Sequence record: NC_047923.1
From: Escherichia phage HZ2R8
DNA: 39,482 bases
Strand: one strand, 5' to 3'
A program made the position numbers and the translations under genes. Shown one piece after another: positions 1 through 30,204 of the stretch. The notes beneath the pieces are model-generated. The model searched no databases. It was given only the letters and a program-made list of their open reading frames with translations, and was not told the DNA's origin. How positions within the stretch are numbered: position 1 is the stretch's first letter; every line of letters begins with the position of its first letter.

Positions 1-60
1 AATAACGTTTAAGGATGACACCTGATTGAGACCAAGGATGGTCTTTAATAAGGAGGAGAC

Positions 61-264
61 ATGCTGTCTTTGGACTTCAATAATGAGTTAGTCAAGGCTG
101 CACCTATTGTTGGCACAGGTGTGGCTGATGGCGCTGCGAGGCTTTTCTTTGGGCTGAGTCTTAATGAGTGGTTCTATGTTGCCGCTATCGCCTACACAGT
201 GGTTCAGATTGGTGCCAAGGTAGTCGATAAGATGATTGACTGGAAGAAAGCTAATAAGGAGTGA
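61..264 (+). CDS. 17.5: Holin (class II, T7 gp17.5-like)
   Basis: 67-aa ORF; translation near-identical to T7 gp17.5 as I recall it; SD TAAGGAGG upstream; hydrophobic core. Confidence 0.9.
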   Translation: MLSLDFNNELVKAAPIVGTGVADGAARLFFGLSLNEWFYVAAIAYTVVQIGAKVVDKMIDWKKANKE

Positions 265-269
265 TGTGT

Positions 270-539
270 ATGGAAAAAGATAAGAGCCTTATCACGTTCT
301 TAGAGATGTTGGACACTGCGATGGCACAGCGTATGCTCGCTGACCTTTCGGACCCTGAGCGTCGGACTCCACAGCTCTACAACGCCATCAACAAACTGTT
401 AGACCGACATAAGTTCCAGATTGGTAAGTTGCAGCCGGATGTTCACATCTTGGGCGGCCTTGCTGGTGCTCTTGAAGAGTACAAAGAGAAAGTCGGGGAT
501 AACGGTCTTACGGATGACGATATTTACACTTTACAGTGA
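270..539 (+). CDS. 18: Terminase small subunit (gp18-like)
   Basis: ORF track 261..539 starts at GTG; ATG at 270 gives MEKDKSLITFLEML..., matching the T7 gp18 N-terminus; SD AAGGAG 8 nt upstream. Confidence 0.85.
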   Translation: MEKDKSLITFLEMLDTAMAQRMLADLSDPERRTPQLYNAINKLLDRHKFQIGKLQPDVHILGGLAGALEEYKEKVGDNGLTDDDIYTLQ

Positions 540-545
540 TATACT

Positions 546-570
546 CAAGGCCACTACCTATAGTGGTCTT
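546..570 (+). promoter_or_regulatory. RNase III-type processing hairpin (R18.5-like)
   Basis: CAAGGCCACT...AGTGGTCTTC imperfect hairpin of the family repeated through the genome. Confidence 0.5.
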
Positions 571-633
571 CATGGATGTCATTGTCTATACGAGATGCTC
601 CTACGTGAAATCTGAAAGTTAACGGGAGGCATT

Positions 634-1080
634 ATGCTACAATTTTTACGTAAGCTGGTCCCTTGGGTTCTCGCTGGGATGCTATTCGGATGGGGATGGC
701 AACTTGGGGCAGACTCAATGGACGCCAAGTGGAAACAGGAGGTACAGAATGAGTACGTTAAGAGAGTTGAGGCTACAGCGAGCACTCAAAGAGCACTCAA
801 TGAAATATCGGCTAAGTATCAGGAAGACCTTGCCGCGCTGGAAGGGAGCACTGATAGGATTATTTCTGATTTGCGTAGCGACAATAAGCGGTTGCTCGTC
901 AGAGTCAAAACTACCGGAACCTCCGATGGTAAGTGTGGATTCGAGCCTGATGGTCGAGCCGAACTTGACGACCGAGATGCTAAACGTATTCTCGCAGTGA
1001 CCCAAAGAGGTGACGCGTGGATTCGCGCTCTACAGGATACCATACGTGAACTACAGCATAAGCAGGAGGTTAAACAATGA
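634..1080 (+). CDS. 18.5: i-spanin (Rz-like, gp18.5)
   Basis: 148-aa ORF with N-terminal TM segment; T7 gp18.5-like; GGGAGG SD. Confidence 0.85.
749..1000 (+). CDS. 18.7: o-spanin (Rz1-like, gp18.7), embedded in +1 frame inside 18.5
   Basis: Internal Met of ORF 704..1000 gives MSTLRELRL...ISGC (lipobox-like Cys) and a proline-rich tail; classic embedded Rz1 arrangement. Confidence 0.7.
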   Translation: MSTLRELRLQRALKEHSMKYRLSIRKTLPRWKGALIGLFLICVATISGCSSESKLPEPPMVSVDSSLMVEPNLTTEMLNVFSQ

Positions 1081-2849
1081 GGAAAGGTGTAGCCGCTCAG
1101 TCCAATCGTAATGCGCTCGTTGTGGCGCAACTAAAGGGTGACTTCGTGGCGTTCCTGTTCGTCTTATGGAAGGCGTTAAACCTTCCGGTGCCCACTAAGT
1201 GTCAAATTGATATGGCTAAGGTACTGGCGAATGGGGACAACAAGAAGTTCATCCTACAGGCTTTCCGTGGTATCGGGAAGTCGTTCATCACTTGTGCGTT
1301 CGTTGTGTGGTCCTTATGGCGGGACCCTCAGTTGAAGATACTTATCGTATCAGCTTCTAAAGAACGTGCAGACGCTAACTCCATATTCATCAAGAACATC
1401 ATTGACCTGCTGCCGTTTCTCAGTGAGTTGAAGCCGAGACCCGGACAGCGTGACTCTGTGATTAGTTTTGATGTTGGTCCTGCTAGTCCTGACCACTCGC
1501 CTAGTGTGAAATCAGTAGGTATCACTGGTCAGTTAACTGGTAGTCGTGCTGATATTATCATCGCGGATGACGTTGAGATTCCGTCTAACAGTGCTACTAT
1601 GGGTGCCCGTGAGAAGCTATGGACTCTCGTTCAGGAGTTCGCTGCATTACTTAAACCACTGCCTACTTCTCGTGTTATCTATCTTGGTACGCCTCAAACT
1701 GAGATGACTCTCTATAAGGAACTTGAAGATAACCGTGGGTACACCACTATCATCTGGCCTGCTCTATATCCAAGGACTCGTGAGGAGAATCTCTACTATG
1801 CCCAACGTCTGGCACCAATGCTCCGTGCTGAATACGAGGAGAATCCTGAGGCGCTGGCTGGCACTCCTACAGACCCTGTTCGATTCGATAGGGATGACCT
1901 ACGTGAACGTGAGTTGGAATACGGTAAGGCTGGCTTTACGTTGCAGTTCATGCTTAACCCGAACCTGAGTGATGCCGAGAAGTACCCTCTGAGGCTCCGT
2001 GACGCTATCGTAGCGGCCTTAGACTTAGAGAAGGCACCGATGCATTACCAATGGCTTCCGAACCGTCAGAACATCATTGAGGACCTTCCTAACGTGGGCC
2101 TTAAGGGTGATGACCTTCACACATACCATGAGTGCTCGAATAACTCTGGTCAGTATCAACAGAAGATTCTGGTCATTGACCCAAGTGGTCGTGGTAAGGA
2201 CGAAACAGGTTACGCTGTGCTGTACACCTTGAACGGTTACATCTACCTAATGGAAGCTGGTGGTTTCCGTGATGGCTACTCAGATAAGACCCTTGAGCTA
2301 CTCGCTAAGAAAGCTAAGCAATGGGGAGTCCAGACGGTTGTCTACGAGAGTAACTTCGGTGACGGTATGTTTGGTAAGGTATTCAGTCCTATCCTTCTTA
2401 AACACCACAACTGCGCTATGGAAGAGATTCGTGCTCGTGGTATGAAGGAGATGCGCATTTGTGATACCCTTGAGCCAGTCATGCAGACTCATCGCCTTGT
2501 CATTCGAGATGAGGTCATTAGGGCAGACTATCAGTCCGCTCGTGATGTAGACGGTAAGCATGACGTTAAGTATTCACTGTTCTACCAGATGACTCGTATC
2601 ACTCGCGAGAAAGGTGCTCTGGCACACGATGACCGATTGGATGCCCTTGCGTTAGGCGTTGAGTATCTCCGTGAGTCCATGCAGTTGGATTCCGTTAAGG
2701 TAGAAGGAGAGGTGCTTGCTGACTTCCTTGAGGAACACATGATGCGTCCTACGGTCTCTGCTACACATATCATTGAGATGTCTGTAGGAGGAGTTGATGT
2801 GTACTCTGAGGACGATGAGGGATACGGTACGTCTTTCATTGAGTGGTGA
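1077..2849 (+). CDS. 19: Terminase large subunit (gp19)
   Basis: 590-aa ORF, near-identical to T7 gp19 across its length; Walker A-like GIGKS. Confidence 0.95.
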
Positions 2850-2886
2850 TTTATGAGGCCAAGGAAGGCCGCTTTAAGGAGGTAAT

Positions 2887-3330
2887 ATGATAAGCAAGAA
2901 GAAGTATGTTATCGATAAGGAGACTGGTTGCTGGAACTTTAGGGGATGTAAGACGAAGACTGGTTATGGTCGCATTCGTGTGAACGGAGTCCATTGGATG
3001 GCCCACAGGTATTCCCTGAGTTGTCATCTAGGCAGACCGATAGCTGACGGAATGGTTGTGATGCACCTATGTGATAATCCTTCATGTGTTAACCCTGAGC
3101 ACCTTAAGGAAGGGACTCAGAAGGAGAACATAGAGGACTGCATCTCAAAAGGTCGTGCAACTAAGGCCACAGGTAAACGTGATGCAACTAAGAGAGACCC
3201 TAGCGAGGAACGTAAGGCTATAGTGATTCGAAGATACCATAAAGGCTGGACCGCAACGTCCATAGCGAGATACCATAAGCTCTCTGTGGCGTGGGTAAAG
3301 AGGGTCATTGAGGATTACCTAAGTGATTGA
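2887..3330 (+). CDS. HNH endonuclease (HNH_3-type, putative homing endonuclease) with C-terminal HTH-like tail
   Basis: 147-aa ORF; motif VVMHLCDNPSCVNPEHL; clear paralog of the 22818..23210 ORF; AAGGAGG SD; sits between gene 19 and phiOR where I recall no gene in T7. Confidence 0.8.
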   Translation: MISKKKYVIDKETGCWNFRGCKTKTGYGRIRVNGVHWMAHRYSLSCHLGRPIADGMVVMHLCDNPSCVNPEHLKEGTQKENIEDCISKGRATKATGKRDATKRDPSEERKAIVIRRYHKGWTATSIARYHKLSVAWVKRVIEDYLSD

Positions 3331-3381
3331 TATTTGAAATTAGTGATACAGGTCTAAGTATATGATTACAGACCATTATTC

Positions 3382-3404
3382 TAATTCGACTCACTATAGG
3401 GAGA
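3382..3404 (+). promoter_or_regulatory. Phage RNAP promoter phiOR (variant TAATTCGACTCACTATAGGGAGA)
   Basis: 21/23 match to the T7 promoter consensus; upstream of gene 19.5. Confidence 0.75.
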
Positions 3405-3495
3405 AGCCTACCTAAAGATTACTATAAGACTTAAAGTTACCTATAAGGTAGGTTGTTATTATTGTTAATACAACCAACATAAAGGAGGGAGACTC

Positions 3496-3645
3496 ATGTT
3501 CCGCTTATTGTTGAACCTACTGCGGCATAGAGTCACCTATCGCTTTCTTGTGGTACTTTGTGCTGCCCTTGGGTACGCATCACTTAATGGACACCTCAGT
3601 TCACTGGAGTCTACCGTTTGCTCTTTACTCACTTGTAGTGATTAA
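3496..3645 (+). CDS. 19.5: gp19.5-like small protein
   Basis: 49-aa ORF (below ORF-track cutoff) MFRLLLNLLRHRVTYRFLVV...; AAGGAGGG SD; just downstream of phiOR. Confidence 0.6.
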   Translation: MFRLLLNLLRHRVTYRFLVVLCAALGYASLNGHLSSLESTVCSLLTCSD

Positions 3646-3884
3646 GGTCTTCCTGACCGACTGACGGCTCACCGAGGGATTCAGCGGTATGATTGCATCA
3701 CACCACTTCATCCCTATAGAGTCAAGTCCTAAGGTATACCCGTAAAGAGCCTCTAATGGTCTATCCTAAGGTCTATACCTAAAGATAGGCCATCCTATCA
3801 GTGTCACCTAAAGAGGGTCTCAGAGAGGGCCTAAGGAGTCCCTAGAGGGTCCTTTAAAATATACCATAAAAATCTGAGTGACTA

Positions 3885-4038
3885 TCTCACAGTGTACGGA
3901 CCCAAAGTTCCCCCATAGGGGTACCTAAAGCCCAGCCAATCACCTAAAGTCAACCTTCGGTTGACCTTGAGGGTTCCCTAGGGGTTGGGTTGACCCTTGG
4001 GTTTACCTTTGAGTGTCTCCTTGTCCCTATCTGTTCAG
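3885..4038. repeat. Genome terminal repeat region (single collapsed copy) = concatemer junction / physical genome ends
   Basis: Begins TCTCACAGTGTACGGACC..., which I recall as the T7 left terminus, and runs to ...CCCTATCTGTTCAG; boundaries are inferred by analogy to T7, not determined. Confidence 0.6.
4029..4035 (+). promoter_or_regulatory. Class II pause/termination signal for phage RNAP (ATCTGTT) at the concatemer junction
   Basis: ATCTGTT heptamer at the right edge of the terminal repeat; the functional role is established for T7, here inferred. Confidence 0.45.
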
Positions 4039-4210
4039 TCTCCTAAAGTCACCTCCTAAAGTCCATCATCAAGCCAACGCCTAAAGAATACCCTTAAAGA
4101 CCCATCGAGTCAATCCCTATCTTAAAGATATTCTAAAGACCATCCTAAAGACCATCCTAAAGCTGCCTTGTTGTTACCTATAAAGATATTGCCTTTAATC
4201 ATCGTTATCC

Positions 4211-4233
4211 TAATTCGACTCACTATAGAGAGA
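4211..4233 (+). promoter_or_regulatory. Phage RNAP promoter phiOL (TAATTCGACTCACTATAGAGAGA)
   Basis: Consensus-like 23-mer near the genome left end. Confidence 0.75.
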
Positions 4234-4292
4234 GATAAGACTACTTAAAGGGGCCAAAGAGAGATTACCCCAAAATAATTTAAAAAAGAGTA

Positions 4293-4321
4293 TTGACTTA
4301 AAGAGTCCTACCGGTTACTAT
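4293..4321 (+). promoter_or_regulatory. Host sigma70 early promoter A1-like
   Basis: TTGACT - 17 bp - TACTAT. Confidence 0.7.
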
Positions 4322-4420
4322 TCATCTCGTCAACGGGACAACGGCCTAAAAGCCACTCCCTGAGATACCGGGGTCAACCGGATAAGTAGACAGCCTGATA
4401 AGTCATACGAAAAACAGGCA

Positions 4421-4450
4421 TTGACAACACGCAGTAACATGCAGTAAGAT
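4421..4450 (+). promoter_or_regulatory. Host sigma70 early promoter A2-like
   Basis: TTGACA - 18 bp - TAAGAT. Confidence 0.7.
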
Positions 4451-4526
4451 ACACAGCGTCAACACGGTAGCACGGTGTCTTCTAGGTGACTCAAGCGCAC
4501 CACGGCACACAAAGCAAACAAAACGG

Positions 4527-4555
4527 TTGACAACATGCAGTAAACACGGTACGAT
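4527..4555 (+). promoter_or_regulatory. Host sigma70 early promoter A3-like
   Basis: TTGACA - 17 bp - TACGAT. Confidence 0.7.
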
Positions 4556-4673
4556 GTACCACAGGCAGTAAGGGCGTAGGGATAGGAACCGAGAAACCTG
4601 CCCGTGACCCGCCAAGGATAAGGCACTAGCCATGAGTCGAATTCGGTCACTCATCGCATAAAAGAATAACAGG

Positions 4674-4702
4674 TTGACAGCCTCCTTTAAAAGCTGTAAG
4701 AT
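4674..4702 (+). promoter_or_regulatory. Additional (fourth) host sigma70-type early promoter
   Basis: TTGACA - 17 bp - TAAGAT; lies in a ~147-bp segment bracketed by direct repeats GATGTACCAC (4553-4562 and 4700-4709). Confidence 0.55.
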
Positions 4703-4822
4703 GTACCACGAAATGACGGAACAGTGAGTCACCACACTGAAAGGTGATGCGGTCTAACGAAACCTGACCAAAGACGCTCTTTAACAATCTGGTAAACGGC
4801 TCTTGAGTGTACACACGTAGCG

Positions 4823-4858
4823 GATAACTCAAGGGTATCGCAAGGTGCCCTTTATGAT
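4823..4858 (+). promoter_or_regulatory. RNase III-type processing hairpin (R0.3-like) upstream of ocr
   Basis: ...ACTCAAGGGTATCGCAAGGTGCCCTTTATGAT... Confidence 0.5.
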
Positions 4859-4889
4859 ATCCACTAACAACACTATGAGGTAACACACA

Positions 4890-5252
4890 ATGGCTATGTC
4901 TAACATGACTTATAACAACGTTTTCGATCACGCTTACGAAATGCTGAAAGAAAACATCCGTTATGATGACATCCGTGACGCTGATGACCTGCACGATGCA
5001 GTGCATATGGCTGCTGATAATGCTGTTCCGCACTACTACAGCGACATTTTCAGCGTAATGGCAAGCGAGGGCATTGACCTTGAGTTTGAGGATTCTGGTC
5101 TGATGCCGGACACCAAGGACGTAATCCGTATCCTGCAAGCACGTATCTATGAGCAATTAACGATTGACCTTTGGGAAGATGCAGAAGACTTACTGAACGA
5201 GTATCTTGAGGAAGTCGAGGAGTCAGAAGAGTACGAGGAGGACGAAGAGTAA
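4890..5252 (+). CDS. 0.3: Ocr (gp0.3) DNA-mimic anti-restriction protein
   Basis: 120-aa highly acidic [25 protein letters not shown]... matching T7 Ocr; first gene after host promoters. Confidence 0.9.
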
Positions 5253-6405: not shown

Positions 6406-7485
6406 GTGAACGCTATCGACATCATGAACGCTATCGACGCAATCAAAGCACTGCCAATCTGTGAACTTGATAAGCGTCAAAGTATGCTCATTGATTTGCT
6501 GGTCGAAATGGTAAACAGCGAAACGTGTGACGGTGAGATAACCGAGTTGAATATGCCGCTCGAATGTCAATACTGGTGGACTACCTTAAAGTGCCTGACC
6601 GCTGACGCTGGCTTCACGATGCTCGGTAATGGTCACTTCTCCGCTGCATATAGTCACCCACTGCTGCCTAACAGAGTGATTAAGGTGGGCTTTAAGAAAG
6701 AGGATTCAGGCGCTGCGTATATCGCATTCTGCCGCATGTATCAGGGACGCGCTGGTATCCCTAACGTCTACGATGTTCAACGTCATGCAGGCTGTTACAC
6801 GGTGGTTCTCGATGCTCTGAATGACTGCGAACATTACGATAACGAGGATCATGTGAAGTATGCTACAATGGCAAGAGGCATTATTGATTATAACTCGGAT
6901 GTATATGACAAGCGTACTGGATGGGATGGGGAGTTCGTCGAGACGTGCAAGCTAATCCGCAAGTTCTTTGAGGGAATCGCATCGTTCGATATGCACAGCG
7001 GTAACATTATGTTCGACGATAATGATGTACCGTTCATTACTGACCCTGTGTCGTTCTCACAGAAGAAAGACGGTGGCGTGTTCAGCATGGACCCTGAGGA
7101 ACTCATCAAGGAAGTCGAGGAGGTCGCACGCCAGAAAGCAATAGACCGCGCCAAGGAGCGTAAAGCACGCCATGAGGGTCGCTTGCAAGCGCGTAGAGTC
7201 AAACGCATTAACCGTAAGGCACGTAAGGCACACCGCGCTAAGCGTGAAAGACTAACAGCACTATGGCGTATGAACGAGCGTCAAGAACGGCGTAACCATG
7301 AGGTAGCTGTAGATGCACTAGGAAGAACCAATAACGCTATGCTCTGGGTCAATATGCTCTCTGGGGGCTTTAAGGCGCTTGAGGAGCGAATCGCGCTGCG
7401 CTGGCGTAATGCTGACCGCATGGCTATCGCTAATGGTCTTCCGCTAAACATTGATAAGCAACTTGACGCAATGCTAATGGGCTGA
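6406..7485 (+). CDS. 0.7: Ser/Thr protein kinase and host shutoff protein (gp0.7)
   Basis: 359-aa ORF near-identical to T7 gp0.7; start is GTG at 6406 (alternative in-frame ATG at 6424). Confidence 0.9.
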
Positions 7486-12325: not shown

Positions 12326-12853
12326 TGGGATGCATAGCGTGCTTAGAGAAAGATGACCGTTATCCACATACCTGTAATAAAGGAGCTAACGATATGACCG
12401 AACGTGAACAAGAGATTATCATTAAGTTGATAGACAATAACGAAGGTCGCCCAGATGATTTGAATGGCTGCGGACTTCTCTGCTCTAATGTCCCTTGTCA
12501 CCTCTGCCCCGCAAATAACGATCAAAAGATAACCTTAGGTGAAATCCGAGCGATGGACCCACGTAAACCTAAACTGGATAAACCAGAGGTAACTCCAACA
12601 GATGACCAGTCTTCCGCTGAGTCAATCGAAGGTGTCACTAAGCCATCCCATTACATGCTGTTTGACGACATTGAGGCTATTGAAGTGATTGCCCGTTCGA
12701 TGACCAGTGAGCAGTTCAAAGGGTACTGCTTCGGGAACGTACTTAAATATCGCCTACGTGCTGGTAAGAAATCCGAACTGGCTTACTTAGAGAAGGACAT
12801 GGCGAAAGCTGGGTTCTACGGTGAACTGTACGAGAAACATAAGGACAAGTGCT

Positions 12854-12864
<11 letters not shown>
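12325..12864 (+). CDS. 1.7: gp1.7 nucleotide kinase-like protein
   Basis: 179-aa ORF with Cys-rich N-terminus, T7 gp1.7-like. Confidence 0.85.
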
Positions 12865-13169
<305 letters not shown>

Positions 13170-27816: not shown

Positions 27817-30204
27817 ATGGCACTCATTAGCCAATCAATTAAGAACTTGAAGGGTGGCATCAGTCAACAGCCTGACATCCTTCGTTATCCAGACCAAGGG
27901 TCACGCCAAGTTAATGGTTGGTCTTCGGAGACCGAGGGCCTCCAAAAGCGTCCACCAATGGTTTTCCTTAAGACCATAGGTGGTAGTGGCGACTTAGGTT
28001 CTGCACCTTATATCCACCTGATTAACCGAGATGAGAACGAGCAGTATTATGCTGTGTTCACTGGAAGCAGTATCCGTGTGTTCGACCTTGCTGGGAACGA
28101 GAAGCAGGTACGTTACCCCACAGACGGCTCTTCGTATATCCAAACAGCCAACCCTCGGAATGACCTGAGGATGGTCACAGTTGCTGACTATACGTTCATC
28201 GTCAATCGTAACGTCCGAGTCACAAGGAATACAAACTCTGTGAACCTAGCTGGGTTTAACCCTAAGCAGGATGCTTTGATAAACGTTCGCGGTGGTCAAT
28301 ATGGTCGAACATTGCAAATCATGATTAACGGTGGAACACAAGCGTCCTACCAGATTCCTGATGGTTCCCAACCAGCGCACGTTAATAATACTGACGCTCA
28401 ATGGTTGGCAGAAGAGTTGGCTAGACAGTGTAGGGCCAATGCGCCGGGATGGACGTTCAACGTTGGTCAAGGTTTCATCCACATTATAGCACCTGCTGGA
28501 CAACAGCTTGATTCCCTCATGACGAAGGATGGCTACGCTGACCAGTTGATTAACCCTGTTACTCACTACGCTCAGTCGTTCTCTAAGTTGCCGCCTAATG
28601 CCCCTGATGGGTACATGGTGAAAATCGTAGGTGATTCCTCTAAGTCTGCCGACCAGTATTATGTTCGGTATGACGCTACACGTAAGGTATGGACTGAGAC
28701 ACTAGGCTGGAACGTTAATAACCAACTACTGTATGAGACCATGCCACACGCTCTTGTACGGGCGTCTGATGGTAACTTTGAGTTCAGGTGGCTTGAGTGG
28801 GTACCAAAGACTTGTGGTGATGATGATACCAACCCTTGGCCTTCCTTCATGGACTCTACGATAAATGACGTGTTCTTCTTCCGTAACCGTTTAGGTTTCC
28901 TTAGTGGGGAGAACATTATCTTGAGTAGAACAGCTAAGTATTTCAACTTCTACCCAGCGTCCATCGCTAACTTGAGTGATGATGACCCTATCGACGTGGC
29001 TGTAAGTACCAACCGAATCGCTACACTTAAGTATGCCGTTCCGTTCTCAGAAGAGTTGCTCATCTGGTCAGACGAAGCACAATTCGTTTTGACTGCATCT
29101 GGTACTCTTACTGCACGTTCCGTTGAGTTGAACCTAACGACTCAATTTGACGTGCAGGACCGAGCGAGGCCGTTCGGGATTGGTCGTAACGTTTACTTTG
29201 CGAGTCCACGGTCCAGCTTTACGTCCATCCATCGGTACTACGCAGTGCAGGATGTGAGTTCCGTTAAGAACGCCGAGGACATTACAGCGCACGTTCCGAA
29301 CTACATACCTAATGGTGTGTACAGTATCTGCGGCTCAGGAACTGAGAACTTCTGTTCGGTTCTCTCTCAGGGAGACCCAAGTAAAATCTTCATGTACAAA
29401 TTTCTGTACCTCAATGAAGAGTTGAGACAACAGTCGTGGTCACATTGGGATTTTGGGGAAAACACGCAGGTGTTAGCGTGTCAGTCCATCAACTCAGATA
29501 TGTACATTATCCTACGTAATGAGTTCAATACGTTCCTAGCAAGGGTATCCTTTACGAAGAATGCTATTGACCTCAGTGGTGAGCCTTATCGTGCCTTTAT
29601 GGATATGAAGATTCGCTACACGATTCCATCTGGGACGTATAACGATGATGCCTATGAGACAGCCATTAACTTGTACAGTATCTATGGGGCAACCTTTGGT
29701 CGAGGGAAGATTACCGTTCTGGAACCTGATGGTAAGATTAACGAATTTGAACAACCTCAGGCTGGTTGGAACACTGACCCTTGGTTGCGACTGAGCGGTA
29801 ACTTAGATGGCAAGACTGTGTTCATTGGGTTCAATATTGACTTCATCTATGAGTTCTCTAAGTTCCTCATCAAGCAGACTGCCGACGATGGGTCTACCTC
29901 CACGGAAGACATAGGTCGCTTACAGTTACGCCGAGCGTGGGTTAACTATGAGAATTCTGGTACGTTCGATATTTATGTCGAGAACCAATCGTCTAACTGG
30001 AAGTACACTATGGCTGGTGCCCGCTTAGGTTCGAATACATTGAGGGCTGGGAGATTGAACCTAGGGACTGGACAGTATCGCTTCCCTGTAGTTGGTAACG
30101 CTAAGTACAACACTGTGTACATTGCATCCACTGAGACTACCCCATTGAATATCATTGGGTGTGGCTGGGAAGGTAACTACTTACGGAGAAGCTCCGGTAT
30201 CTAA
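27817..30204 (+). CDS. 12: Tail tubular protein B (gp12)
   Basis: 795-aa ORF MALISQSIKNLKGGISQQPD..., T7 gp12-like. Confidence 0.95.
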   Translation: MALISQSIKNLKGGISQQPDILRYPDQGSRQVNGWSSETEGLQKRPPMVFLKTIGGSGDLGSAPYIHLINRDENEQYYAVFTGSSIRVFDLAGNEKQVRYPTDGSSYIQTANPRNDLRMVTVADYTFIVNRNVRVTRNTNSVNLAGFNPKQDALINVRGGQYGRTLQIMINGGTQASYQIPDGSQPAHVNNTDAQWLAEELARQCRANAPGWTFNVGQGFIHIIAPAGQQLDSLMTKDGYADQLINPVTHYAQSFSKLPPNAPDGYMVKIVGDSSKSADQYYVRYDATRKVWTETLGWNVNNQLLYETMPHALVRASDGNFEFRWLEWVPKTCGDDDTNPWPSFMDSTINDVFFFRNRLGFLSGENIILSRTAKYFNFYPASIANLSDDDPIDVAVSTNRIATLKYAVPFSEELLIWSDEAQFVLTASGTLTARSVELNLTTQFDVQDRARPFGIGRNVYFASPRSSFTSIHRYYAVQDVSSVKNAEDITAHVPNYIPNGVYSICGSGTENFCSVLSQGDPSKIFMYKFLYLNEELRQQSWSHWDFGENTQVLACQSINSDMYIILRNEFNTFLARVSFTKNAIDLSGEPYRAFMDMKIRYTIPSGTYNDDAYETAINLYSIYGATFGRGKITVLEPDGKINEFEQPQAGWNTDPWLRLSGNLDGKTVFIGFNIDFIYEFSKFLIKQTADDGSTSTEDIGRLQLRRAWVNYENSGTFDIYVENQSSNWKYTMAGARLGSNTLRAGRLNLGTGQYRFPVVGNAKYNTVYIASTETTPLNIIGCGWEGNYLRRSSGI

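What the first reader, a model, noticed from the sequence alone, without database searches (positions are those of the whole stretch)
4563..4710. ~147-bp insertion carrying a fourth strong host promoter, bracketed by 10-bp direct repeats
Downstream of the A3-like promoter the sequence ...TACGATGTACCAC is followed by ~147 bp that end in a second ...TAAGATGTACCAC. After that the sequence resumes with what I recall as the T7 post-A3 leader (GAAATGACGGAACAGTGAGTCACC...). The inserted block contains a full TTGACA-17bp-TAAGAT promoter (4674-4702) and a small hairpin (ATGAGT/ACTCAT stem, 4632-4654) whose loop holds the 8-bp palindrome CGAATTCG. The direct repeats suggest duplication or illegitimate recombination that added an extra early promoter, which would raise early transcription by host RNAP.
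Basis: partly seen in the sequence, partly recalled or inferred. Interest (0 to 1): 0.5.

Follow-up and report, generated by a model that had tools for sequence, protein, structure and literature searches.

The report
Extra fourth early promoter cassette
This T7-like phage carries a 147-bp block, absent from T7, that adds a fourth promoter for the host's RNA polymerase; dozens of sequenced relatives share the block and one curated record already annotates the promoter, so it is largely ordinary, though the block is unusually conserved across phage genera.

Summary
GATGTACCAC occurs exactly twice in the window (4553-4562 and 4700-4709), 147 bp apart. T7 and T3 lack the intervening DNA. The block contains TTGACA-17-TAAGAT (4674-4702) and the ATGAGT/ACTCAT hairpin (4632-4654).

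The "10-bp direct repeats" are the tail of two homologous 38-nt promoters (76% identical). The block runs from the +1 of A3 to the -1 of the new promoter. It is not private to this phage: 44 phage records in at least four genera carry it at 93-99% identity. The curated BA14 record annotates four host RNAP promoters, the fourth inside this block. Natural hybrids (N30, PDP351P2, K35PH164C3) show that recombination between shared promoter motifs changes the number of promoters. The block interior is unrelated to neighbouring spacers, so this is not a local duplication.

One point is unexpected. The block is the most conserved 125-nt stretch of the whole genome against BA14 and ST31 (0.97-0.98, against about 70% genome identity). 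Two predicted stem-loops show compensatory changes, so the promoter-less 100 nt may have a role of its own.

Promoter activity is inferred, not tested. Novelty is low: the promoter is already annotated in a relative.

The parts
4293..4321 (+). A1-like host (sigma70) promoter, TTGACT-17-TACTAT
   Evidence: Promoter scan; aligns with T7 A1.
4421..4450 (+). A2-like host promoter, TTGACA-18-TAAGAT
   Evidence: Promoter scan; aligns with T7 A2.
4525..4562 (+). A3-like host promoter unit (GG-TTGACA-17-TACGAT-GTACCAC).
   Evidence: T7 A3 +1 (position 750) is the A immediately after GTACCAC, so the +1 here is A4563.
4563..4709 (+). The 147-bp block absent from T7, T3 and N30. It runs from the +1 of A3 to the -1 of promoter 4.
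   Evidence: Alignments. 44 phage records carry it at 93-99% identity. It is the top-ranked tile genome-wide against BA14 and ST31.
4572..4610 (+). Predicted stem-loop I of the leader RNA (GGG..GGG.UAGG / CCUG CCC..CCC). The outer pair covaries G-C to U-A in the Kayfunavirus copies.
   Evidence: RNAalifold and pair counts. Fold z = -1.42.
4629..4657 (+). One pair occurs as A-U, G-U or G-C and never as A·C.
   Evidence: (z = -2.50).
4658..4669 (+). A-rich tract (ATAAAAGAATAA) at about -52 to -41 of promoter 4, where an UP element would lie. A1-A3 have similar A-rich tracts just upstream of their -35 hexamers.
   Evidence: Sequence. Nearly invariant across the 23 variants. The UP-element role is inferred.
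4674..4702 (+). Promoter 4: -35 TTGACA (4674-4679), 17-bp spacer, -10 TAAGAT (4697-4702). The predicted +1 is G4710.
   Evidence: Promoter scan. Homologous to BA14's annotated 'host RNAP promoter' at 834-870. The -35 and -10 positions 1, 2 and 6 are invariant in 23 variants.
4700..4709 (+).
4710..4889 (+). Early leader shared by transcripts from all four promoters. It includes the boxA-like GCTCTTTAACAATCTGG (4776-4792) and precedes gene 0.3 (ocr, 4890-5252).
   Evidence: 99% identical to the N30 leader.

Best explanation
The block is one extra unit of the phage's array of early promoters. It adds a fourth sigma70-type promoter (TTGACA-17-TAAGAT, predicted start near G4710) between the A3-type promoter and the early leader. 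Host RNA polymerase would then have four start sites for the early operon (gene 0.3 through gene 1) and for the transcription-driven entry of the genome.

The unit is a discrete cassette. Its ends coincide with the start site of A3 and the start site of promoter 4. The 'direct repeats' are the homologous -10 and discriminator segments of the two promoters. T7-like phages appear to gain, lose and exchange the cassette by recombination within these short shared promoter motifs.

The first ~100 nt of the block are transcribed only from A1-A3, as extra leader. They probably form two stem-loops; what these do is not established.

Shown here: the anatomy, absence from T7/T3/N30, the homologue annotated as a promoter in BA14, the cross-genus distribution, the hybrid junctions and the exceptional conservation.
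Inferred: promoter activity, the start site, the effect on early transcription and entry, and the recombination mechanism.
For: Promoter quality: the scan scores 10 of 12, equal to the A2- and A3-like sites. The hexamers are the same as those of T7 A2, and the -10/discriminator is shared with A3.

Prior annotation: BA14 (EU734171) has four 'host RNAP promoter' features, and the fourth (834-870) lies in the homologous block.

Conservation pattern fits a promoter: across 23 distinct variants the -35 is invariant, the spacer is 17 bp (16 in one variant), and -10 changes are confined to positions 3-5 (TAAGAT, TAAGCT, TAATAT).

Distribution: 44 records in Teseptimavirus, Berlinvirus, Kayfunavirus and Przondovirus, plus five ~40-kb metagenomic contigs. 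It was not found in bacterial genomes.

Cassette behaviour: the block core is 93-100% identical while flanks in other genera score 0.63-0.76, near the 0.62-0.66 this scoring gives for sequences lacking the block. It ranks first of 1,575 genome tiles against both BA14 and ST31. It is joined to at least five different leader types and to different first genes.

Recombination at promoter motifs: N30 and PDP351P2 carry hybrid promoters, and K35PH164C3 is a mosaic.

Polymorphism among close relatives: N30 lacks the block and C5, EG1 and CICC 80001 have it, yet all are 91.5-93.7% identical to the window.

Background: about 850 bp of T7 DNA enters first, and E. coli RNAP then binds promoters and pulls in the rest (PMC8954989). 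Promoter 4 would start at about genome coordinate 826, counting from the left end at window 3885.
Against: No transcript data were available, so activity and start site rest on consensus and homology. BA14's annotation is itself a prediction as far as I could find, and no paper describing it was recovered. Because promoter 4 lies downstream of three strong promoters, it could be occluded or redundant. From my own knowledge of T7 deletion mutants, fewer than three A promoters are enough in the laboratory. An extra promoter does not explain why the promoter-less 100 nt are conserved as strongly as the promoter. The direction of the event (gain or loss) is unresolved.
Confidence: 0.75

Rival explanations
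1. The important part is the promoter-less ~100 nt (4563-4673). On this reading it is a conserved structured leader RNA with two stem-loops, made from A1-A3, with a sequence-specific role. That role could be acting on the transcribing polymerase, on RNA stability or processing, or as a decoy. The promoter at its 3' end would be secondary.
For: The core is at least as conserved as the promoter itself (0.93-1.00 against 0.92-1.00). Within each lineage it is more conserved than both functional flanks (0.96-0.99 against 0.81-0.92). RNAalifold finds helices with three pairs changed on both sides and kept. 99.8% of cells are paired, and the slid-partner controls give no compensatory pairs. Substitutions are rarer in paired columns (7 of 56) than in unpaired ones (28 of 91), and 6 of those 7 preserve pairing. 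The G-U pairs fit only the transcribed strand. Substitutions in held-out copies spare both main stem-loops. SL-II folds better than shuffles (z = -2.5).
Against: There is no Rfam match. Overall folding is unexceptional (z = -0.88 and -0.22). Each compensatory change is probably one event in one of about three lineages, and the structure was derived from the same sequences. 'Pairs with a change on both sides' was reached by 131 of 500 shuffles. The loops and linkers are as invariant as the stems, which fits recent spread better than structural selection. No divergent homologues exist that could show deep conservation. One helix is broken in PHB19.
Confidence: 0.25
2. A four-promoter array is ancestral and vertically inherited. 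T7, T3 and N30 lost one unit by deletion between the repeated GTAxGATGTACCAC motifs. The cross-genus identity reflects purifying selection only, with no horizontal exchange.
For: N30's hybrid promoter (A3's -35 and spacer, the block promoter's TAAGAT -10, and the window-type leader) is what a deletion between the repeats would leave. The block alleles fall into lineage-specific types (Teseptimavirus-, Berlinvirus- and Kayfunavirus-type), as expected for descent within lineages. Within lineages the block evolves more slowly than its flanks.
Against: Only about 44 of 459 records that match this early region carry the block. It is either near-identical or absent, with no intermediates. It is the top outlier of 1,575 tiles in genomes that are otherwise about 70% identical, above every coding region, which would require near-total constraint on every base, loops included. 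It is joined to at least five unrelated leader types, and K35PH164C3 is a mosaic, so recombination clearly occurs at its edges.
Confidence: 0.2
3. The block is a functionally neutral passenger. Its promoter-like sequence is not used, or adds nothing, and the block persists only because it hitch-hikes through recombination in a recombination-prone region.
For: No functional data exist. A1-A3 already supply strong promoters. Close relatives with the block (C5, EG1) and without it (N30) both exist as viable phages.
Against: A neutral 147-bp segment should diverge at least as fast as its flanks, but it is the slowest-evolving segment within and between lineages. Changes in the -10 avoid the critical positions 1, 2 and 6, and the -35 is invariant.
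Confidence: 0.1
4. The block is a small mobile element (MITE- or IS-like) that inserted with a target-site duplication.
For: A discrete block flanked by a 10-bp exact direct repeat, with a patchy distribution.
Against: The repeat extends to a 38-nt promoter homology. The block has no terminal inverted repeats. It always sits at the same position, once per genome, and has no copies in host genomes. No conserved ORF crosses it.
Confidence: 0.02

Closest known systems
Fourth 'host RNAP promoter' of coliphage BA14 (GenBank EU734171, feature 834-870)
   Same: It is the homologous sequence (block about 96% identical), at the same position after the A3-type promoter and before the leader and gene 0.3, in the same orientation, with the same -35 and spacer length.
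   Different: BA14 has TAAGCT rather than TAAGAT, a C-G to T-A double change in the spacer, a 1-nt insertion, and a different leader and first gene (a T3-type gene 0.3). The flanking A1-A3 region is only about 0.68 identical by the measure.
T7 early promoters A1, A2 and A3 (NC_001604, starts at 498, 626 and 750)
   Same: Strong sigma70-type promoters in tandem at the left end, pointing rightward, each with an A-rich upstream tract. Promoter 4 has A2's hexamers and A3's -10-flanking and discriminator sequence.
   Different: T7 has three, not four, and lacks the 147-bp block entirely. The activity of promoter 4 has not been measured.
PeSL (promoter-early stem-loop) regulatory cassettes of T4-type phages (PMC2839356, PMC4122927)
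   Same: A small non-coding cassette that combines a strong sigma70-like early promoter with stem-loop structure. It sits at module boundaries, and recombination there changes gene or promoter content.
   Different: PeSL stem-loops are effective terminators and PeSLs occur in many copies per genome. Here no terminator is predicted in the block, there is a single copy at a fixed position, and the stem-loops lie upstream of the promoter. This is an analogy, not membership.
Cis-acting leader RNAs with two stem-loops that modify RNA polymerase (HK022 put RNAs; recalled from memory)
   Same: Two stem-loops in a leader just downstream of strong early phage promoters.
   Different: No sequence or model match was found and no functional evidence exists. 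T7-group leaders already carry a boxA-like element downstream (4776-4792). This is only a lead.

Membership tests
T7-group early host-RNAP (sigma70) promoters | -35 close to TTGACA and -10 of the form TAnnnT, separated by 17 +/- 1 bp | tested here: met
   TTGACA-17-TAAGAT at 4674-4702, 10 of 12 matches.
T7-group early host-RNAP (sigma70) promoters | Located at the genome's left end between phiOL and the first early gene, pointing rightward, upstream of the boxA-containing leader | tested here: met
   Left end at 3885; a phiOL-like site at 4211-4233; boxA-like motif at 4776-4792; gene 0.3 at 4890. The layout matches T7 and BA14.
T7-group early host-RNAP (sigma70) promoters | Homology to a promoter annotated in a curated relative | tested here: met
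   BA14 'host RNAP promoter' at 834-870 lies within the homologous block.
T7-group early host-RNAP (sigma70) promoters | Critical promoter positions conserved across homologues | tested here: met
   The -35 is invariant, -10 positions 1, 2 and 6 are invariant, and the spacer is 17 bp in 22 of 23 variants.
T7-group early host-RNAP (sigma70) promoters | Initiation by E. coli sigma70 holoenzyme in vitro, or early in infection | not testable with these tools
   No transcript data. The literature searches found no experimental mapping.
PeSL-type mobile regulatory cassettes (T4-type phages) | A composite of a strong sigma70-like early promoter and a stem-loop | tested here: met
   The promoter plus predicted stem-loops at 4572-4610 and 4629-4657.
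PeSL-type mobile regulatory cassettes (T4-type phages) | The stem-loop acts as an effective transcription terminator (PMC2839356) | tested here: not met
   The scan finds no terminator-like site within 4563-4709, and no U-run follows either stem.
PeSL-type mobile regulatory cassettes (T4-type phages) | Many dispersed copies per genome, flanking variable genes | tested here: not met
   One copy in the window, in BA14 and in ST31. The 10-mer occurs only at this locus.
PeSL-type mobile regulatory cassettes (T4-type phages) | Recombination between the motifs reshuffles adjacent modules | tested here: inconclusive
   Hybrid promoters in N30 and PDP351P2, the K35PH164C3 mosaic and at least five leader types are consistent with this. 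The recombination events themselves were not observed.
Known structured RNA family (Rfam) | A match to a curated covariance model | tested here: not met
   Only noise hits at E = 3.4 or higher, all outside the block core.
Structured cis-regulatory RNA (generic) | Covariation supporting helices beyond what phylogeny alone would give | tested here: inconclusive
   Three compensatory pairs, 99.8% of cells paired and none in the slid controls. But 131 of 500 shuffles reach the same number of covarying pairs, and there are only about three lineages.
Transposable element or insertion with target-site duplication | Terminal inverted repeats, a duplication unrelated to local function, and copies at other sites | tested here: not met
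   No terminal inverted repeats, and the repeat is promoter homology. The block was not found at any other site, nor in host genomes.
Local tandem duplication of a promoter unit | The interior of the new unit is similar to the neighbouring unit | tested here: not met
   The interior compared with the A1-A2 and A2-A3 spacers gives z = 0.01 and -0.32. Only the 38-nt promoter part is similar.

The most novel reading that the evidence does not exclude
The cassette may be more than a spare promoter. On this reading, its promoter-less ~100 nt encode a two-stem-loop leader RNA under strong sequence constraint, with a function of its own in early infection. That function might be modifying or pausing host polymerase before the boxA leader, protecting early RNA, or acting as a decoy. 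The whole unit would be a T7-group counterpart of the mobile promoter/stem-loop cassettes of T4-type phages, spreading across genera by recombination at promoter motifs. This would explain why a non-coding block is the most conserved stretch of the genome between phage genera.
Probability: 0.25. Interest if true: 0.55.

Novelty: already known. Interest (0 to 1): 0.3.

Why it matters
As a fourth early promoter it matters little. It is natural variation in a well-understood promoter array, it is already annotated in BA14, and it is present in dozens of deposited genomes. It does show that the number of early promoters in T7-like phages (2, 3 or 4) changes by recombination between short shared promoter motifs. 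That is relevant to anyone modelling or engineering T7-type early expression and genome entry, or annotating these genomes. Several records call spurious minus-strand ORFs across this block.

The point worth following up is the conservation. A 125-nt non-coding tile is more conserved than any gene between genera that are about 70% identical. That implies either a recent sweep of a beneficial regulatory cassette across genera, or an unrecognised sequence-specific function.

Tried and rejected
- Rfam scan of 4150-4950 at E up to 10: only noise.
- Folding of the block and its parts: the whole block is unexceptional (z = -0.22 and -0.88). Only SL-II is modestly better than shuffles.
- ORF search: no plus-strand ORF of 20 aa or more. 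The 9-codon ATG...TAA mini-ORF in the hairpin loses its stop in EG1 (read). The open minus-strand frame is expected by chance, and indels interrupt it in 7 of 23 variants.
- Host origin: no match in E. coli genomes or in 185,579 species genomes.
- Mobile-element model: rejected.
- Local duplication: rejected.
- Divergent homologues by covariance model, including EcoDS1's third-promoter region, which MAFFT had loosely aligned to the block: none found.
- A weak gapped similarity of 4606-4636 to 7144-7176: judged to be chance.
- Literature searches for a description of four early promoters in BA14-like phages: none found; the first two attempts failed on term length.
- pO103 and WW1 as proof of cross-genus allele transfer: not conclusive, because their block could simply be the ancestral Berlin-type allele.

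Full report
**What the window is.** The window is a circularly permuted genome of a T7-like phage. The T7-type left end (TCTCACAGTGTACGG) begins at 3885. A phiOL-like T7-RNAP promoter lies at 4211-4233 and gene 0.3 (ocr) at 4890-5252. A 20-kb segment is 91.5-93.7% identical to Escherichia phages EG1, C5, N30 and CICC 80001 and to Yersinia phage WW2, all in or near Teseptimavirus.

**Observation.**
- TACGATGTACCAC lies at 4550-4562 and TAAGATGTACCAC at 4697-4709, 147 bp apart.
- The exact 10-mer GATGTACCAC occurs only at these two places in 39,482 bp.
- The promoter scan finds four rightward sigma70-type sites: 4293-4321, 4421-4450, 4527-4555 and 4674-4702. The last is TTGACA-17-TAAGAT at 10 of 12 matches, as good as the A2- and A3-like sites.
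- The hairpin ATGAGT/ACTCAT (4632-4654), with CGAATTCG in its loop region, is there.
- Direct alignment shows that T7 and T3 pass from ...GATGTACCAC/T straight into the leader, while the window carries 147 extra bp.

**Anatomy.** The repeats are longer than 10 bp. The repeat finder reports a 38-nt repeat (4525-4562 vs 4672-4709, 76% identity, period 147), which is the whole A3-type promoter against the whole new promoter. T7's A3 start (750) is the A immediately after GTACCAC. By homology A3 starts at A4563 here and promoter 4 at about G4710. The block 4563-4709 is therefore exactly the transcribed DNA from A3's start to the base before promoter 4's start. An A-rich tract (4658-4669) sits where an UP element would lie, as it does upstream of A1-A3. 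The interior (4573-4660) has no significant similarity to the A1-A2 or A2-A3 spacers or to the leader (z = 0.01, -0.32 and 1.09). This is not a local duplication.

**Relatives.** The block matches 44 phage records at 93-99% identity. They fall in Teseptimavirus (CICC 80001, IME390, C5, UFV01), Berlinvirus (BA14, 285P, P483, P694, D226, pO103), Kayfunavirus (ST31, SH3, yong1, ZH4, Baskent, CHX131) and Przondovirus (K35PH164C3). It also occurs on five ~40-kb metagenomic contigs. It was not found in E. coli genomes or in one genome each of 185,579 bacterial and archaeal species. In the curated BA14 record the depositors annotated four 'host RNAP promoter' features. The fourth (834-870) lies in the homologous block. 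The fourth promoter is therefore already on public record, although I found no paper that describes it.

**Evidence that promoter 4 is a real promoter (indirect).** Its hexamers are those of T7 A2 and its discriminator is that of A3. Across 23 distinct variants the -35 is invariant. The spacer is 17 bp in 22 of them. The -10 varies only at positions 3-5 (TAAGAT, TAAGCT, TAATAT). No transcript data were available.

**Evidence for recombination at promoter motifs.**
- N30 is as close to the window as C5 or CICC 80001 but lacks the block. It has a hybrid promoter: A3's -35 and spacer, then GGTAAGATGTACCAC, then the window-type leader (99% identical).
- PDP351P2 joins the region upstream of A2 directly to promoter 4's -35, which leaves it only two promoters.
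- K35PH164C3 joins an A2-type promoter to the block and then to a window-type leader.
- The block is found next to at least five different leader types and different first genes: ocr, SAM hydrolase and small ORFs.

Promoter number (2, 3 or 4) thus changes by exchange within short shared promoter sequences. Whether this lineage gained the unit or T7 lost it cannot be decided from these data.

**The unexpected part: conservation.** The block core is 93-100% identical in all contexts. Flanks in other genera score 0.63-0.76, close to the 0.62-0.66 the same measure gives for sequences that lack the block. Among 1,575 tiles of 125 nt, the block tile ranks first against BA14 (0.98; 99th percentile 0.86) and first against ST31 (0.97; 99th percentile 0.79), in genomes about 70% identical overall. 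Within each lineage the promoter-less core (0.96-0.99) is also more conserved than the functional flanks (0.81-0.92). A covariance model of the core finds only near-identical full-length copies or nothing. It found no divergent homologues in about 94 other loci, including T7, T3, EcoDS1 and N30.

**Possible RNA structure.** RNAalifold predicts two main stem-loops (4572-4610 and 4629-4657) and a small helix in the promoter spacer. Each has one pair that changed on both sides and stayed paired (G-C/U-A; A-U/G-U/G-C; C-G/U-A).
- For the structure: 99.8% of cells are paired and the slid-partner controls give no compensatory pairs. 6 of the 7 variable paired columns preserve pairing. The G-U pairs fit only the transcribed strand. 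Six held-out copies did not disturb the two main stem-loops.
- Against it: 131 of 500 column shuffles reach three covarying pairs. There are only about three lineages. The structure was derived from these same sequences. A weak 3-bp helix is broken in PHB19. Thermodynamic support is modest (z = -0.88 overall and -2.5 for stem-loop II). There is no Rfam match. The loops are as invariant as the stems, which points to recent spread as much as to selection.
- Coding constraint is unlikely. Indels interrupt every frame in some variants, and all genes of these phages lie on the other strand.

**Mechanism proposed.** Host RNA polymerase binds four tandem promoters on the first ~830 bp of the genome. 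In T7 about 850 bp enter first, and transcription by E. coli RNAP then draws in the rest (PMC8954989). Promoter 4 starts at about genome coordinate 826, upstream of the boxA-like leader (4776-4792) that all early transcripts share. It would add one more entry point for early transcription and for DNA entry. The cassette spreads or is lost by recombination at the -10/discriminator motif on its left and at the start site of promoter 4 on its right. The closest analogy is the PeSL promoter/stem-loop cassette of T4-type phages (PMC2839356). The block fails two defining PeSL features, terminator function and multiple copies, so this is a resemblance in behaviour and not membership.

**Verdict.** It is wrong on 'duplication', too narrow on 'insertion', and untested on function. 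Novelty is low because the same block and its promoter are already in public records. The residual interest lies in the exceptional cross-genus conservation and possible structure of the promoter-less part.

Noticed in passing
window 3885 (and 1-3884): The window is a circular permutation of a linear T7-type genome. The T7-like left end TCTCACAGTGTACGG starts at 3885, so 1-3884 is the right end of the genome joined to the left end (a concatemer-junction-like arrangement).
   Followed up: partly
window 4211-4233: A phiOL-like phage-RNAP promoter, TAATTCGACTCACTATAGAGAGA, lies upstream of the host promoters, as in T7 and BA14. It differs from the T7 consensus at a few positions.
   Followed up: no
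window 4639-4644 and 29952-29957: There are only two EcoRI sites (GAATTC) in the whole genome, against 8.5 +/- 3.2 expected from shuffles. One of them sits in the loop region of the conserved hairpin and is kept in 22 of 23 block variants.
   Followed up: partly
window 4776-4792: The rrn-boxA-like motif GCTCTTTAACAATCTGG in the early leader is essentially invariant across all T7-like genera examined, whereas the surrounding leader diverges. The same 17-mer pattern also hits many unrelated viral contigs.
   Followed up: partly
L016 (Teseptimavirus PDP351P2, OZ035763) about 650-750: This phage appears to have only two early host promoters: A1 plus a hybrid in which the region upstream of A2 is fused to the block promoter's -35. 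The A2 core, A3 and the block interior are missing.
   Followed up: partly
L017 (Klebsiella phage K35PH164C3, OY978870) about 660-900: A mosaic early region. It has a Berlin-like A1 and A2, no A3, then the block with a 16-bp spacer (a 1-nt deletion), then a leader almost identical to the window's Teseptimavirus-type leader, followed by a T3-type SAM hydrolase gene.
   Followed up: partly
L154 (ESh1), L028 (Baskent_phicoli_1), L002 (CICC 80001): Questionable annotation in public records. Minus-strand 'hypothetical protein' CDSs are called across the promoter array and the block in ESh1 and Baskent (ESh6 also lists hypothetical proteins under the match). Gene 0.3 (ocr) is labelled 'protein kinase' in CICC 80001, IME390 and others.
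   Followed up: no
window 4555-4571 vs 4421-4437 and 4527-4543: The first bases of the block (CAGGCAGTAA; ACATGCAGTAAG in the Berlin-type copies) echo the spacer and -10 motif ACATGCAGTAAG of the A2- and A3-type promoters. This hints that the block's left edge derives from an A2-type promoter of another lineage.
   Followed up: partly
window 12650-12875: This is the second most conserved region against BA14 (tiles 0.89-0.92), far above the genome median. I did not examine which gene it lies in.
   Followed up: no
window 3900-4180: A dense array of short CCTAAAG / TAAAGAC-type repeats lies between the left end and phiOL, as in T7's left end. PDP351P2 has a longer run of the 'CCATCCTAAAGA' unit.
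   Followed up: no
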